A stretch of DNA of 17,516 bases from a virus. The translations under genes and the position numbers were made by a program. This document shows positions 2,664 through 13,303 of the stretch, piece after piece; position 1 is the first letter of the stretch; the number at the start of each line of letters is the position of its first letter. The DNA is taken from UHGV virus genome UHGV-1979868; one strand, 5' to 3'. The notes under the pieces were generated by a model. The model saw nothing but the letters and a program-made list of their open reading frames with translations. It was not told the DNA's origin and did no database searches.

Positions 2664-3567
2664 TCGCCCTCCTGAGAGACGGGATTTACGTGCATCCAGT
2701 GCATCACGCATGACGGTGATCGCATCGGTACTGTTAACAAGTTCATCAGCCAGTCCGGCATCAATGGCCTCCTGACCGCTGTACACTGCAGCCTCGGTAT
2801 CCAGCACAGCCTGCACGGACAGGCCGGTATATGCCGACACCTTCTGCGCAAACATCCGGCGGGTTGCATCCATCCGGGACTGCAGTGTTTCCCGGACGTC
2901 ATCTGGTAGATGGCTGTAGGGGTTGCCATCCACCTTATGGCTGCCGCTGTAAATCAGCGTGATTTCCACGCCCTGTTTCTCCAGCGCAGCGCCGTAATTA
3001 CTGTGAGCCATCATGACGCCGATGGAGCCTGTCCGGGCGGTCTGCGTGACCAGACGCCGGGAGGCGGCGCTGGCAAGCAGCTGACCTGCACTGCAGTTCA
3101 TGTCGTTGGCCAGCGCCCATACCGGTTTTATGTCACGCACACGGGCAATGATGTCAGCGCAGTCAAATGCCCCCGCCACCATCCCGCCTGGCGTGTCCAT
3201 ATCGAGCAGAATGCCGTCCACCATCGGGTCGCTGGCAGCCTGTTGCAGACGGGCGATAATGCTGTTGTAACCGGTCATCCCCGAATACGGCTGCAGCGCC
3301 CGCGTCCGGCTGACCAGCGTGCCGGACACCGGCAGCACGGCGATGCCGTTCATGACCTGATAACTGCGGGCCTGTCGTGGCCCGTCATCATTACCGGATA
3401 ACGCCAGCGTCTCGGGTGCCTCTCCGGCAGTCAGGCTGTCACCGGACACCGCATCCGTCAGGCGGCTGATCCCCAGCTGGCCTGCAAGCGCACAAAAGAA
3501 AACCCGCGCATAGGCGGGTTCAAGCATCAGCGGCTCATTAAAAGCCATACTGGCAATATGCGGGAGA

Positions 3568-3587
<20 letters not shown>
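2268..3587 (-). CDS. C: Prohead protease / minor capsid protein C
   Basis: Track ORF 2268..3701 contains the lambda gpC sequence (V)TAELRNLPHIASMAFNEPLML... from the GTG at 3587-3585, which is preceded by GGAGGA 5 nt upstream. This gives 439 aa and a start 20 nt inside the end of B, as in lambda. Confidence 0.88.
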
Positions 3588-7268
<3,681 letters not shown>

Positions 7269-7294
<26 letters not shown>

Positions 7295-7814
7295 TCAGCA
7301 ACCCCGGTATCAGTTCATCCAGCGCGGCTGCTTTGTTCATGGCTTTGATGATATCCCGTTTCAGGAAATCAACATGTCGGTTTTCCAGTTCCGGAAAACG
7401 CCGCTGCACCGACAGGGGGATCCCGTCGAGAATACTGGCAATTTCACCTGCGATCCGCGACAGCACGAAAGTACAGAATGCGGTTTCCACCACTTCAGCG
7501 GAGTCTCTGGCATTCTTCAGTTCCTGTGCGTCGGCCTGCGCACGCGTAAGTCGATGGCGTTCGTACTCAATAGTCCCTGGCTGGAGATCTGCCTCGCTGG
7601 CCTGCCGCAGTTCTTCAACTTCCCGGCGCAGCTTTTCGTTCTCAATTTCAGCATCCCTTTCGGCATACCATCTTATAACGGCGGCAGAGTCATAAAGCAC
7701 CTCATTACCCTTGCCACCGCCTCGCAGAACGGGCATTCCCTGTTCCTGCCAGTTCTGAATGGTACGGATACTCGCACCGAAAATGTCAGCCAGCTGCTTT
7801 TTGTTGACTTCCAT
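7269..7814 (-). CDS. Nu1: Terminase small subunit Nu1
   Basis: 181-aa ORF MEVNKKQLADIFGASIRTIQNWQEQGMPVLRGGGKGNEVLYDSAAVIRWYAERDAE..., recognisably lambda gpNu1, and the first gene after cos. Confidence 0.95.
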
Positions 7815-9696: not shown

Positions 9697-9902
9697 TTCA
9701 TTTTCACTTTTTTAAATCCAACGACAGACGGCTGGCATTTAAGTATTGTGAAATATTATCAAATGTAATCATCATTGATTTACAAAAGATACATTTTGCC
9801 CCGAAAGGATTCATGTCAGAAACATCAAAAGATGATGTTCTATACTGGGAACCATGACAACACGGGCATCTAAAGTGAATATGGTTTGTAATATTGTCTA
9901 CC

Positions 9903-10115
9903 TCAAAGCGCCACTACATGAACAGCGGCAGGACCTTTAGGTCCGTTCTCAATACCAAATTCAACTTCCTGATTCTCAGTTAATGTTTTGAAATCGTTGC
10001 TCTGAATTGCTGAGAAATGGACAAACACATCTTTGCTGCCATCTTTCGGCGTGATGAAACCAAAACCTTTTTCAGGGTTAAACCATTTCACTAAACCAGT
10101 CATTTTGTTAGACAT
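9903..10115 (-). CDS. cspI: Cold-shock protein CspI (CspA family)
   Basis: 70-aa [73 protein letters not shown] with RNP1/RNP2 motifs; matches CspI as I recall it. ATG at 10115 with SD, and a long 5' leader region upstream, typical of csp genes. Confidence 0.9.
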
Positions 10116-10478
10116 AATTATTACCTTTTGAAGAAATTAGCCCTTGGGCAGAATGGTCCGAAAAAAAATATCAGAGAGAAAAACCAACAAGGAAATCTCA
10201 AGAGGTACAAATAATAAAATTATAACAATGACTGCTTCAGATAAATTTGTAACAAACCAGAACACCATTAACGCATGATTAACCACCCATAGCAAGGATT
10301 ACTTTTGTAAAGAAAAACACAGCAATGAAAGAATAGCTTTATTTATTAATAATAACGTGTCATTCTGATTAAGACCTTTTATCTTACCCTTAAGATTTCA
10401 GGAATTTTGGCTCATGGAAGAGTCCTTTTTATTTAAATTTTACATTCCGCGATGTAAATGTTCCGATTTAATATTACC

Positions 10479-12034: not shown

Positions 12035-12253
12035 ATCCTCACCCCGATGTACACGGATGGTGCAATATGTTTGAAAAGATCGGAGTCTACGGGGTAGTTT
12101 TGACAGCACACGTTGTTCTCAACGGCGCTAAAAAAACATACACATTAAAAATGTGGGTAATTATTTTGAAAGAAAGTCATATATAAAATAATAATACGAG
12201 AAATGTTTTCATATTTAGTGTACTGTATACGGCCATTTATACAGGAAAAGCCT

Positions 12254-12424
12254 ATGTCAGAACGTAAAAACTCAAAATCACGCCGTAATTATCTCGTTAA
12301 ATGTTCCTGCCCAAACTGCACCCAAGAGTCAGAACACAGTTTTTCAAGAGTACAAAAAGGTGCCCTTTTGATCTGCCCTCATTGCAACAAAGTATTCCAG
12401 ACAAATCTTAAAGCTGTAGCCTGA
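12254..12424 (+). CDS. Small zinc-ribbon protein, 56 aa (two CxxC pairs)
   Basis: Track ORF 12203..12424; the ATG at 12254 has AGGAAA 5 nt upstream. Product MSERKNSKSRRNYLVKCSCPNCTQESEHSFSRVQKGALLICPHCNKVFQTNLKAVA with CxCPNC ... CPHC. It is divergent from essQ. It may correspond to a small putative zinc-binding Qin protein of K-12, but I cannot confirm the name. Confidence 0.5.
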   Translation: MSERKNSKSRRNYLVKCSCPNCTQESEHSFSRVQKGALLICPHCNKVFQTNLKAVA

Positions 12425-12480
12425 TTGATTTTATTAGTAACAAGTATTTTTTATATTTTAATAATATATTTAAAGCAGAT

Positions 12481-12506
12481 AATAAAAAACCCGCCTGAGC
12501 GGGTTT
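12481..12506 (-). terminator. Rho-independent terminator
   Basis: Minus-strand AAACCCGCTCAGGCGGGTTTTTTATT: GC-rich hairpin plus T-tract, about 280 nt downstream of cspB and just beyond the 3' end of the plus-strand zinc-ribbon ORF. Confidence 0.6.
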
Positions 12507-12787
12507 GAGATTGTGGTGCTTTTTGTGGGAGTCATCCACTTACGCACTTTGTTTTGCCATGCCAGCAGTTAGCTTCTGCTGTAAAACTATTCATGCAGCA
12601 AACCTGCACTTCACCACAATGGTTAGCATACTTTTCCTGATTAAGATTTTGCCAAATATGCTAGCCATTGTTTCATGTATTGGACCTCCTTACTTTTTAT
12701 TAAAGAGATCCAATATTCACTACTCTGTCCGTATCTCTACTCAGGCATCAGCCTTCTTCGTTATCGTATACAGACGAGCGATGAATT

Positions 12788-13003
12788 TTAATCAGTAATG
12801 ATGACATTTGCTGCTGCAGGACCTTTAGCACCACTCTCTATAGAGAAGGTAACCTTTTGACCTTCAAATAAGGTTCGATAATTATCATTCTGAATCGCAG
12901 AAAAATGCACAAACACATCTTTACTACCATCAACAGGAGAAATAAAGCCGAAACCTTTATCAGCGTTAAACCATTTTACTAAACCAGTCATTTTATTTGA
13001 CAT
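12788..13003 (-). CDS. cspB: Cold-shock protein CspB (CspA family)
   Basis: 71-aa [74 protein letters not shown], matching CspB as I recall it; ATG at 13003 with TAAGGA 7 nt upstream. Confidence 0.9.
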
Positions 13004-13303
13004 TCTACATTCCTTAACTTGAGCCTTTCGGCATAAATGGTTTGCATAACAGAAACGACTTCGTACTTAATTGGAGAGACTCAAAGAAGGAATAAGTGAA
13101 TAACACCTGAAATGAGAACTGCTTTAGTAAACTACTTCGTATATCGTCTGTTCTTCAAACCGACGCAATCATTAACGCATAGTTGAACATATGAAGCAAT
13201 GTTTATTTTAGACATCCAGCCATCTTCAACCCCATCAAAAAACTATAGCTTTCTTCAGGAACGTGTGTATAGTGCGCCAAGTTATCAGTATTAAGGAATT
13301 TTT

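What the first reader, a model, noticed from the sequence alone, without database searches (positions are those of the whole stretch)
12510..12787. Perfect Shine-Dalgarno plus tiny tandem ORFs in the 280-nt region downstream of cspB
Between the cspB stop (12788) and the terminator (about 12481-12506) there is an unusually long untranslated stretch on the late strand. It contains TAAGGAGGT, a 9-nt perfect complement of the 16S rRNA 3' end (plus coordinates 12684-12692), 7 nt upstream of an ATG at 12676. That ORF is only 11 codons (MKQWLAYLAKS). A second 12-codon ORF (MLTIVVKCRFAA, AGGAAA SD) follows 11 nt later, and a third 6-codon ORF follows that. This could be a leader-peptide-like regulatory element, a small protein gene, or a translated sRNA. 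By a rough estimate a perfect 9-mer SD with ideal spacing is expected about once per 10 such windows.
Basis: seen in the sequence. Interest (0 to 1): 0.45.

Follow-up and report, generated by a model that had tools for sequence, protein, structure and literature searches.

The report
Conserved folded RNA after cspB
The "perfect ribosome-binding site plus tiny genes" downstream of the cold-shock gene cspB sit inside a conserved, heavily folded RNA tail that travels with mobile cold-shock genes across gut bacteria; this tail matches no Rfam family, and the tiny genes look like by-products of it.

Summary
The window here is 100% identical to the E. coli K-12 Qin prophage.

The roughly 280-nt cspB 3'UTR is a conserved, strongly structured RNA (MFE z-score -7.6). 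It has these parts:
- a hairpin just after the stop codon (H1);
- a second hairpin (H2);
- a hairpin P0;
- a four-way junction (P1-P4, about 110 nt);
- a terminator.

Relatives occur in Escherichia, Shigella, Enterobacter, Klebsiella, Kluyvera, Kosakonia, Phytobacter, Leclercia and Citrobacter, on prophages, phage-plasmids, plasmids and chromosomes. 191 of 194 copies lie directly downstream of a csp gene. In the core, 13 of 36 pairs show compensatory changes. No Rfam family matches.

The "perfect SD" is entirely the 3' arm of a 15-bp, -18 kcal/mol hairpin found only in the Qin lineage. ORF1 is absent elsewhere, and all six substitutions seen in it are non-synonymous, one of them a stop. ORF2 and ORF3 overlie helices and junctions of the RNA, and their starts, stops and frames are not kept.

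Most likely this is a cis-acting 3'UTR domain that governs csp mRNA fate. That function is inferred, not shown.

The parts
12788..13003 (-). cspB coding sequence (71 aa). Its 5'UTR and CDS match the Rfam cspA thermoregulator over 12772-13164.
12725..12777 (-). H1: a conserved long hairpin starting 11 nt after the stop codon, with the conserved inner sequence CGAUAACGA.GAAGG...CCUGAGUAG. The single-sequence MFE extends it to about 12715-12786.
   Evidence: RNAalifold on 16 homologues gives 14 pairs, 10 with compensatory changes. It is also present in the MFE of the whole UTR.
12678..12715 (-). H2: a 15-bp hairpin whose 3' arm is the 'perfect SD' and whose 5' arm is GGAUCUCUUUA. This sequence is specific to the Qin lineage. 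Cyrano and L106 have a hairpin of unrelated sequence at the same place.
   Evidence: -18.3 kcal/mol, z -6.6, 0 of 200 shuffles fold as well. Variants C23U, C25U and G45A keep or improve pairing.
12684..12692 (-). All nine bases are paired in H2.
12641..12676 (-). Mini-ORF1, MKQWLAYLAKS plus stop. It overlaps the 5' strand of P0 and its extension. It is not conserved outside the Qin lineage.
12616..12671 (-). P0 hairpin: 10 bp, 12666-12657 paired with 12630-12621. It can be extended by 5 bp (12671-12667 with 12620-12616), and that extension competes with the outer half of P1.
   Evidence: The K-12 T at 12656+11 (Leu5 codon) restores a U-A pair.
12510..12620 (-). Four-way junction:
- P1: 12620-12612 with 12518-12510.
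- P2: 12608-12604 with 12598-12594.
- P3: 12581-12576 with 12568-12563, loop AAGCUAA.
- P4: 12539-12536 with 12528-12525.
- Conserved junction strands: GAAG, AUGAAUAGU, AAAGUGCGUAAG (12550-12539), AAAAGC.
   Evidence: 94.7% of cells paired, 13 of 36 pairs with changes on both sides, 0 of 500 shuffles as good, slid controls 24-56%. An independent metagenome set agrees. The same fold is the unconstrained MFE in several homologues.
12508..12671 (-). Extent of the covariance-model match (P0 plus the four-way junction). It is the only copy in the window.
   Evidence: 145 bits, E 8e-35 (the Qin sequence was in the seed alignment).
12591..12629 (-). Mini-ORF2, MLTIVVKCRFAA plus stop. It overlies the P0 3' arm, the P1 5' arm and P2.
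12540..12560 (-). Mini-ORF3, MAKQSA plus stop. It overlies the junction strand between P3 and P4, and its ATG is absent in the other types.
12487..12506 (-). Intrinsic terminator (8-bp stem, run of U) that ends the cspB transcript.

Best explanation
The flagged stretch is the 3' untranslated tail of the cspB mRNA. It is a conserved, multi-domain structured RNA, not a set of small genes. Its order is: H1 hairpin, H2 hairpin, P0 hairpin, a four-way junction (P1-P4) with conserved junction strands, then the terminator.

It has no promoter of its own, so it is made as part of the cspB transcript. In a phage it would also be part of Q-antiterminated late transcripts. The same module accompanies cspA-type cold-shock genes on prophages, phage-plasmids, plasmids and chromosomes of Enterobacteriaceae.

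In the Qin lineage, the variable H2 hairpin happens to carry UAAGGAGGU as its 3' arm, so the 'perfect SD' is buried in a 15-bp stem. The mini-ORFs are incidental reading frames across conserved helices.

**Shown:** conservation, covariation, strand (G-U pairs), linkage to csp, non-conservation of the ORFs, and sequestration of the SD.

**Inferred (about 0.4-0.45):** the module acts in cis on the fate of the csp mRNA. A compact 3' fold would set the transcript's sensitivity to processing and 3'-to-5' decay (RNase E/III, PNPase, RNase R), which is the level at which csp expression is known to be controlled. Competing helices (the P0 extension against the outer half of P1) would give it two states that temperature, Csp proteins or helicases could shift.

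The identity claim (structured RNA, ORFs incidental) I hold at about 0.85.
For: **Identity and annotation**
- The region is 100% identical to the K-12 Qin cspB region, and nothing is annotated between cspB and ynfU.
- Relatives at 75-82% identity lie behind csp genes in unrelated replicons.
- Pattern scans and a covariance model recover it in 9 or more genera.
- 191 of 194 DNA-ascertained copies have a CSD ORF ending 120-220 nt upstream.

**Structure**
- Whole UTR: -105 kcal/mol, z -7.6.
- Core helices: 94.7% paired, 13 pairs with compensatory change, 0 of 500 shuffles as good, slid controls 24-56%.
- The metagenome set agrees: 11 such pairs.
- H1: 10 of 14 pairs compensatory.
- G-U pairs fix the csp strand as the folding strand.
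- Unconstrained MFEs of single homologues give the same four-way junction.
- Columns 187-191 of alignment A1 covary with both possible partners. The two conformers are within 1 kcal/mol of each other in Qin, L106, Kluyvera and Phytobacter.

**Against coding**
- The SD is paired.
- The ORFs are not conserved, and the compensatory RNA changes are non-synonymous.
- There is no minus-strand promoter in the UTR.
- All members carry the cspA thermoregulator upstream, so they are cold-shock-type csp genes.
Against: - I found no expression, half-life or processing data for this UTR.
- The family is narrow (Enterobacteriaceae, about 7 sequence types), so the number of independent compensatory events is small.
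- Three conserved blocks were required by my search patterns. The metagenome scan, anchored elsewhere, did show variation in the P3 loop.
- Strongly conserved junction strands are more than a simple exonuclease barrier would need. They fit a specific protein or ligand partner, or a trans-acting RNA, at least as well.
- In several types conformer A is 5-6 kcal/mol better than B, so a switch is not general.
- In some types the element is followed by a same-strand ORF rather than a terminator, so it is not always 3'-terminal.
- Translation of ORF1 in E. coli was not tested.
Confidence: 0.55

Rival explanations
1. A trans-acting RNA. The tail, or its four-way junction plus terminator, is cut from the cspB mRNA and persists as a stable non-coding RNA. 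It would base-pair through its conserved unpaired strands (AAGCUAA loop, AAAGUGCGUAAG), or bind and titrate a protein such as a Csp, ProQ/FinO-type or Hfq chaperone.
For: - Junction and loop sequences are conserved, which stability alone does not require.
- A terminator with a U-tail directly follows in Qin, Cyrano and L106.
- The module is kept in very different replicons, with only csp as a constant partner.
- The compact fold has a very low z-score.
Against: - There is no internal promoter.
- Many types have no canonical terminator after the element.
- No report of an RNA from this locus turned up in the papers searched.
- The P3 loop varies in some members (AAGCGAG, AAACUAA).
Confidence: 0.25
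2. ORF1 really is translated when H2 is opened by a Csp protein, a helicase or temperature. The ribosome on ORF1 then unzips P0, which shifts the P0-extension/P1 equilibrium. That would be a translation-coupled RNA switch, or ORF1 would encode a small peptide.
For: - The SD is perfect, the spacing (7 nt) is ideal and the start is ATG.
- ORF1 runs exactly over the 5' strand of P0 and its extension (parts list).
- The SD, ATG and stop are kept in most Qin-type variants.
- The hairpin has U-G pairs, as RNA thermometers do.
Against: - H2 is very stable for a melting element (-18.3 kcal/mol, 15 bp).
- One variant, G45A, weakens the SD while improving the stem.
- All six substitutions in ORF1 are non-synonymous, including W4 to stop, and L5P is explained by P0 pairing.
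- The SD and ORF1 are missing from every other type, from a deletion variant, and from one E. coli copy where the ATG is AGG.
- Genome-wide, one such site by chance is plausible.
Confidence: 0.1
3. A read-through controller. The alternative helices act as a sensor (riboswitch-, thermometer- or Csp-responsive) that decides whether transcription or translation continues into what lies downstream: the lysis genes in Qin, or a 75-aa ORF in the Enterobacter/Klebsiella type.
For: - Mutually exclusive helices each have covariation support.
- In several types a same-strand ORF follows within 60-90 nt, without a clear terminator.
- In Qin the element sits between Q and the lysis cassette.
- Csp proteins are known antiterminators (established knowledge: Bae et al. 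2000).
Against: - The competing helices do not include the terminator stem in Qin.
- In phage-plasmids the next gene is convergent.
- In Qin the next gene, ynfU, is convergent.
- Only csp, not any downstream gene, is constant.
Confidence: 0.07
4. Nothing functional. On this reading the region is a decayed gene remnant, or holds a real protein gene on one of the strands (for example the 97-aa antisense ORF 12505-12798, or the 41-aa ORF annotated in phage PHB10), and the SD and ORFs are chance.
For: - Phage annotators have called ORFs here: PhiR42_1 XSB42601.1 and PHB10 QBJ00788.1.
- A decayed copy exists on a Klebsiella plasmid.
Against: - Compensatory changes occur in five helices and G-U pairs are specific to the strand.
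- 1-nt indels and stop changes break every long frame across types.
- Antisense ORFs are absent or short in other types.
- The antisense ORF has no Pfam match.
Confidence: 0.03

Closest known systems
cspA mRNA thermosensor (Rfam RF01766, cspA thermoregulator)
   Same: It is an RNA structure within a cold-shock mRNA that can take alternative folds, and it controls csp expression at the RNA level. It is present on the very same transcripts.
   Different: RF01766 covers the 5'UTR and coding region. Its match ends at 12772 and does not align to the tail. The element here is 3' of the stop codon, shares no sequence with that model, and has a four-way junction.
3'UTR-derived and prophage 3'-end RNAs (e.g. 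CpxQ, SroC, DapZ; IpeX from the nmpC 3' region of prophage DLP12)
   Same: It lies at the 3' end of an mRNA and shares its terminator. IpeX, like this element, sits behind a 'moron' gene between Q and the lysis genes of a lambdoid prophage (from my own knowledge; not tested here).
   Different: This element is much larger and more structured (about 280 nt, five helical domains). Many members have no canonical terminator. No processing, Hfq or ProQ evidence was found. K-12 holds no second copy detectable by BLAST, so there is no homology to IpeX.
Lambda sib retroregulation (a 3' hairpin cut by RNase III controls the upstream int gene)
   Same: It is a structured element 3' of a gene in a lambdoid phage whose fold could differ between terminated and antiterminated transcripts. 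Long H1 and H2 duplexes are present.
   Different: There is no sequence relation. The element is also found outside phages. RNase III dependence is untested.
Leader-peptide attenuators (trpL, hisL, etc.)
   Same: It has tiny ORFs, competing helices and a terminator within about 200 nt.
   Different: It lies after the gene, not before it. The ORFs are not conserved and have no regulatory codon runs. The competing helices do not involve the terminator. Rfam's Trp and Leu leader models score far below threshold and only on the terminator.
SD-sequestering RNA thermometers (FourU, ROSE)
   Same: In H2 the SD pairs with a U-rich strand that includes U-G pairs.
   Different: FourU scores 16.6 bits against a threshold of 60. 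The stem is far more stable than known thermometers. The ORF it would control is 11 non-conserved codons. The hairpin's sequence is not conserved in other members.

Membership tests
Any Rfam 15 family | A match at or above the family's gathering score over the element | tested here: not met
   The window and six other members hit only cspA (upstream of the element) and STnc100 (elsewhere). A permissive scan of 12440-12800 gives only sub-threshold, terminator-driven matches. ARAGORN finds no tRNA or tmRNA.
Leader-peptide attenuator | A short ORF conserved among homologous loci (start, stop, regulatory codons) | tested here: not met
   ORF1 occurs only in the Qin lineage, and all 6 of its substitutions are non-synonymous, including a stop. 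The ORF2 start is not conserved in position, and its stop is lost in the L245 and L260 types.
Leader-peptide attenuator | Located upstream of the regulated gene(s) on the same strand | tested here: not met
   In the window the element is followed by a terminator and then the convergent gene ynfU.
Leader-peptide attenuator | Alternative terminator and antiterminator helices coupled to the ORF | tested here: inconclusive
   Competing helices exist (P0 extension against outer P1) and ORF1 overlaps one strand. They do not include the terminator stem.
Small protein gene | An accessible ribosome-binding site | tested here: not met
   All 9 SD bases are paired in a -18.3 kcal/mol hairpin, both in isolation and in the full-UTR MFE and centroid structures. 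This is a prediction only.
Small protein gene | Evidence of translation (initiation peak, tagged product) | not testable with these tools
   The Stringer 2021 table that is held is truncated at plus-strand 1.13 Mb. No supplements are held for Weaver 2019 or Meydan 2019.
Hfq-type 3'UTR-derived sRNA | An intrinsic terminator with a U-tail immediately 3' of the RNA body, conserved across members | tested here: not met
   It is present in Qin, Cyrano and L106. The PHB10 and Enterobacter/Kluyvera types show no canonical stem plus U-run.
Hfq-type 3'UTR-derived sRNA | A discrete processed transcript, chaperone binding, or target pairing | not testable with these tools
   The literature searches found nothing for this locus.
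Conserved structured RNA motif (generic criterion used for new Rfam-type families) | Several helices supported by compensatory changes across diverged homologues, on one strand | tested here: met
   single-sequence MFEs agree.
FourU/ROSE RNA thermometer | A model match, and marginal stability that allows melting at 30-42 C | tested here: not met
   FourU scores 16.6 bits against 60. H2 is 15 bp at -18.3 kcal/mol.

The most novel reading that the evidence does not exclude
A previously unrecognised two-state riboregulator rides with mobile cold-shock genes throughout Enterobacteriaceae, including E. coli K-12. It is a four-way-junction RNA with conserved junction strands. It would sense temperature, a Csp protein, a helicase or a small ligand, and would couple that signal to the fate of the csp mRNA or to the release of a trans-acting RNA. 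In the Qin lineage it would have acquired a hairpin-gated SD and an 11-codon ORF whose translation flips the switch.
Probability: 0.2. Interest if true: 0.75.

Novelty: new member of a known kind. Interest (0 to 1): 0.55.

Why it matters
E. coli K-12 is the most closely annotated bacterial genome. A 160-280-nt RNA there, with a covariation-supported four-way junction and no Rfam family or literature that I could find, would be a real addition to the catalogue of bacterial structured RNAs.

It is tied to one gene class: cspA-type cold-shock genes, whose expression is controlled mainly through mRNA structure and stability. So it offers a testable 3'-end counterpart to the well-known 5'UTR thermosensor.

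Two practical points follow:
- Annotators have called spurious ORFs across this element in phage genomes.
- The essQ-cspB interval that contains it (and ynfU) is a widely used 'neutral' chromosomal landing pad.

For small-ORF discovery, it is a cautionary case. A textbook SD with ideal spacing can be the paired arm of a hairpin.

Tried and rejected
- **Ribo-seq evidence.** The Stringer 2021 supplement is stored truncated (plus strand to 1.13 Mb). No supplements are held for Weaver 2019 or Meydan 2019, and the mBio version is not in the library. Result: no answer.
- **Term-seq tables (Adams 2021).** They list only the cspB 5'UTR and internal 3' ends. They were useful only for fixing MG1655 coordinates.
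- **The search for related loci with CspB.** It returned 80 identical Qin copies and added no diversity.
- **RNAduplex between the csp 5'UTR and 3'UTR.** It gave meaningless whole-length duplexes, so I dropped it.
- **tRNA-like idea for the cloverleaf-shaped junction.** ARAGORN finds nothing, and loop and junction lengths do not fit a tRNA.
- **RNAalifold's alternative to P1** (GUGC with GCAY, GAU with GUC). It is compatible with the sequences but changes on one side only, whereas P1 has four pairs with changes on both sides. I kept it as a possible minor conformer.
- **Coding on the antisense strand, or in the Cys-rich frame (..DRCDEMQDCCMNSLKAEANCL).** Rejected because of 1-nt indels and stops between types and no Pfam hit.
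- **Homology to a second K-12 locus (e.g. IpeX).** BLAST finds one place per genome.

Full report
**1. The observation.** On the minus strand the sequence reads ...AAUAAAAAG-UAAGGAGGU-CCAAUAC-AUG AAA CAA UGG CUA GCA UAU UUG GCA AAA UCU UAA. The 9-mer lies at 12692-12684 and the ATG at 12676. ORF1 is MKQWLAYLAKS. ORF2 (MLTIVVKCRFAA, 12629-12591) starts 11 nt after the ORF1 stop, and ORF3 (MAKQSA, 12560-12540) follows. cspB is 12788-13003 and the terminator is 12506-12487. The 9-mer occurs once against 0.06 expected per window. So the description is correct and locally unusual. By my own arithmetic, though, a few such SD-plus-ATG sites are expected by chance in a whole genome.

**2. Where this is.** The 701 bases around the finding are 100% identical to E. 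coli K-12 MG1655, in the Qin prophage. The local gene order is quuQ, cspF (opposite strand), cspB, then ynfU (opposite strand), essQ and the lysis genes. RefSeq annotates nothing between the cspB stop and ynfU. About 30% of complete E. coli genomes (1,622 of 5,426) carry the stretch nearly full-length, and so do several inducible phages. Window coordinate w corresponds to U00096.3 coordinate w + 1,628,551, derived from the Term-seq table of Adams et al. 2021. The ORF1 ATG is therefore at 1,641,227.

**3. The lead.** BLAST at low stringency showed that the distal half of the tail (from ORF2 to the terminator) is 75-82% identical to DNA in unrelated replicons. One is the SSU5-like phage-plasmid Cyrano, next to dnaE. 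Another is phage PHB10. In both, the match lies directly behind a csp gene, which in Cyrano is unannotated.
- Pattern scans of viral contigs, one genome per species, and metagenomes, plus BLAST against plasmids, recovered the element in Escherichia, Shigella, Enterobacter, Klebsiella, Kluyvera, Kosakonia, Phytobacter, Leclercia, Atlantibacter, Pseudescherichia and Citrobacter.
- Three hits of the genome pattern scan were chance matches inside EF-G or ABC-transporter genes and were dropped. In the metagenome scan, 3 of the 67 pattern hits did not match the covariance model.
- Of 194 copies found by DNA alone with enough upstream sequence, 191 have a cold-shock-domain ORF ending 120-220 nt upstream of the P3 loop. 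One of the three exceptions has an IS element inserted.
- The replicon context otherwise varies: a lambdoid late region, phage-plasmids, conjugative plasmids among metabolic genes, and chromosomes.
- All members tested also carry the Rfam cspA thermoregulator on the same transcript. The constant partner is therefore a cspA-type, cold-inducible csp gene.

**4. Structure.** An alignment of 22 diverse tails (A1) shows five helical elements.
- I proposed the core by eye and then tested it. It consists of P0, a long-range closing helix P1, and three hairpins P2-P4 that form a four-way junction.
- 94.7% of cells are standard pairs (shuffles 88.7 +/- 0.5). 13 of 36 pairs have changes on both sides. 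No shuffle out of 500 does as well. Sliding the 3' partners by 1-3 columns drops pairing to 24-56%.
- P1 alone has four pairs with double changes: GC/AU, AU/UA, AU/GC and UA/CG.
- RNAalifold found P0, P2, P3 and P4 independently.
- The metagenome set was ascertained with a pattern that excludes the Qin type and leaves P0-P3 free. It gives 11 pairs with double changes, and no shuffle does as well. That alignment is fitted to the model, which is a caveat.
- The hairpin immediately after the stop codon (H1) has 10 of 14 pairs with compensatory change.
- G-U pairs are frequent, so the folding strand is the csp sense strand.
- The single-sequence MFE of the whole 313-nt Qin tail is -105 kcal/mol (z -7.6) and contains H1, H2, P0, P2-P4 and the terminator.
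- Unconstrained MFEs of the Kosakonia, PHB10, L094 and Cyrano cores reproduce the full four-way junction.
- A covariance model finds exactly one copy in the window, at 12508-12671. There is none behind the second csp gene, cspI.

**5. Competing helices.** Columns 187-191 of A1 (Qin AUUGU, 12620-12616) can pair in two ways: upstream with 131-135 (ACAAU, 12671-12667, extending P0), or downstream with 294-298 (the outer half of P1).
- Each alternative has two pairs with double changes, and the overall scores are equal.
- The two conformers are within 1 kcal/mol in Qin, L106, Kluyvera and Phytobacter. The full-P1 form is 5-6 kcal/mol better in PHB10, L094 and Kosakonia.
- A two-state element is therefore possible but not general.

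**6. The 'perfect SD'.** UAAGGAGGU is wholly the 3' arm of a 15-bp hairpin (H2, 12715-12678) whose 5' arm is GGAUCUCUUUA. The hairpin folds at -18.3 kcal/mol with z -6.6, and it persists in the full-length MFE and centroid structures.
- Cyrano and L106 have a hairpin of unrelated sequence at the same position. The structural feature is therefore shared, and its sequence, including the SD, is a Qin-lineage accident or innovation.
- Among Qin-type variants, C23U and C25U keep pairing through G-U. G45A turns a U-G into a U-A pair while spoiling the SD. A43C breaks both.

**7. The ORFs.**
- ORF1: the SD and ATG are absent in every non-Qin type. They are removed by an 82-nt deletion in the Escherichia sp. 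E1V33 type, and replaced (AGG, no SD) in E. coli ECGI0523.
- Within the Qin type, the six substitutions in ORF1 are all non-synonymous: W4stop, L5P, A9V, K10I, S11T and S11P. The L5P position is explained by RNA: the K-12 U restores a pair with the A on the P0 3' arm.
- ORF2's frame stays open because the nucleotides are conserved for P0, P1 and P2, but its features drift. The start moves (ATG, TTG or none), there is no SD outside Qin, and the stop is lost where GCAUGAA becomes GCACGAA.
- The compensatory RNA changes in ORF2 alter the peptide (V to A, R to G).
- ORF3's ATG exists only in the Qin, Cyrano and L106 types.
- Longer frames on either strand are broken by 1-nt indels and stops between types, and the 97-aa antisense ORF has no Pfam match.

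**8. What it most likely does.** There is no sigma-70-like promoter on the minus strand inside the tail, so the RNA is made as part of the cspB transcript. Established knowledge says that cspA-family expression is set mainly by mRNA structure and stability:
- rapid RNase E decay at 37 C;
- stabilisation in the cold;
- PNPase-dependent clearance after acclimation;
- RNase R induction;
- RNA melting by Csp proteins.

My best reading is a cis-acting 3' domain that sets how the csp mRNA is processed and degraded, possibly in two conformations. This is inference, and I give it about 0.4-0.45. The conserved junction strands would fit a specific protein partner or a trans-acting processed RNA about as well (0.25). 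A translation-gated switch in the Qin lineage (0.1) and a read-through controller (0.07) remain open.

**9. Comparison with what is known.** No Rfam 15 family matches, either at gathering thresholds on seven members or in a permissive scan. The sub-threshold hits (Trp leader, IsrK, FourU and others) rest on the terminator or on H2. Searches of the paper library for cspB with UTR, sRNA, Qin, ProQ, RIL-seq, O157 or ynfU found nothing about this tail. The nearest concepts are the cspA 5' thermosensor, 3'UTR-derived RNAs including prophage IpeX, lambda sib retroregulation, attenuators and SD-masking thermometers. The membership table shows which defining features fail.

**10. Verdict and caveats.** The peptide interpretation is not supported, but the hunch that this is an RNA element is. 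The real feature is a new family of structured RNA attached to mobile cold-shock genes.
- The family is phylogenetically narrow, with about seven sequence types, so few events are independent.
- Several conserved blocks were required by my search patterns. A scan anchored elsewhere did reveal variation in the P3 loop.
- The shuffle control is not a probability.
- No expression or translation data could be reached.
- The absence of prior description rests on Rfam plus a partial literature library.

Noticed in passing
window 9876-10261 (-): There is a second Rfam cspA-thermoregulator match (113 bits), which is the cspI gene. The covariance model for the 3' element finds no copy behind it, so only one of the two csp genes in this prophage carries the tail.
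   Followed up: partly
window 12254-12424 (+): ynfU (56 aa, Pfam YnfU, zinc-ribbon-like) converges on the same terminator as cspB. If it read through, it would make RNA antisense to the structured element. PHB10 has a 54-aa minus-strand ORF in the same position (L003 3144-3308), which I did not compare with YnfU.
   Followed up: partly
window 12505-12798 (+): A 97-aa TTG ORF lies antisense to the whole tail. It is annotated as a hypothetical protein in phage PhiR42_1 (XSB42601.1), and PHB10 annotates a 41-aa sense ORF across the junction (QBJ00788.1). Both look like annotation artefacts over a structured RNA.
   Followed up: yes
L002 2632-2845 (phage Cyrano OV696614): An intact 71-aa csp gene with a cspA-type 5'UTR (Rfam, 188 bits) is not annotated in the deposited phage record.
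   Followed up: partly
L003 4288-4489 and L239 1361-1556: Rfam STnc100 sRNA matches (49-53 bits; threshold 47) lie 0.5-1.2 kb downstream of the element in PHB10 and in a Klebsiella aerogenes plasmid. They follow a 75-aa same-strand ORF with no Pfam match. This may be a conserved csp / element / small ORF / STnc100 island.
   Followed up: no
window about 12110-12787 (essQ-cspB interval): This interval is used as a 'neutral' chromosomal landing pad in E. coli engineering (Kuhlman and Cox 2010, PMC2847246, and later MPRA and IM08B-type strains). It contains ynfU and the conserved RNA. I did not retrieve the exact insertion coordinate.
   Followed up: partly
L081 about 2950-3010; E. coli hits H1-H5: An IS3-family element ends exactly at the P0/P1 boundary in one viral contig. 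IS1A or IS200C copies interrupt the 701-bp region in several E. coli genomes. I did not map the insertion sites.
   Followed up: no
L235 700-860 (K. variicola plasmid pKp5-1): This is a decayed copy of the element (59 bits): P3 is broken, and P4 and the 3' arm of P1 are deleted. It lies behind an intact csp gene, so the tail is dispensable at least there.
   Followed up: partly
window 3568-7814 (-): Large ORFs of 181, 641 and 533 aa (7269-7814, 5369-7294 and 3568-5169) lie downstream of the lysis genes. From memory, not checked here, they look like small and large terminase and portal genes, and K-12 Qin is truncated there. If so, the window comes from a more complete Qin-like prophage. The region is 100% identical to the inducible phage PhiR42_1 over 12470-12790.
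   Followed up: no
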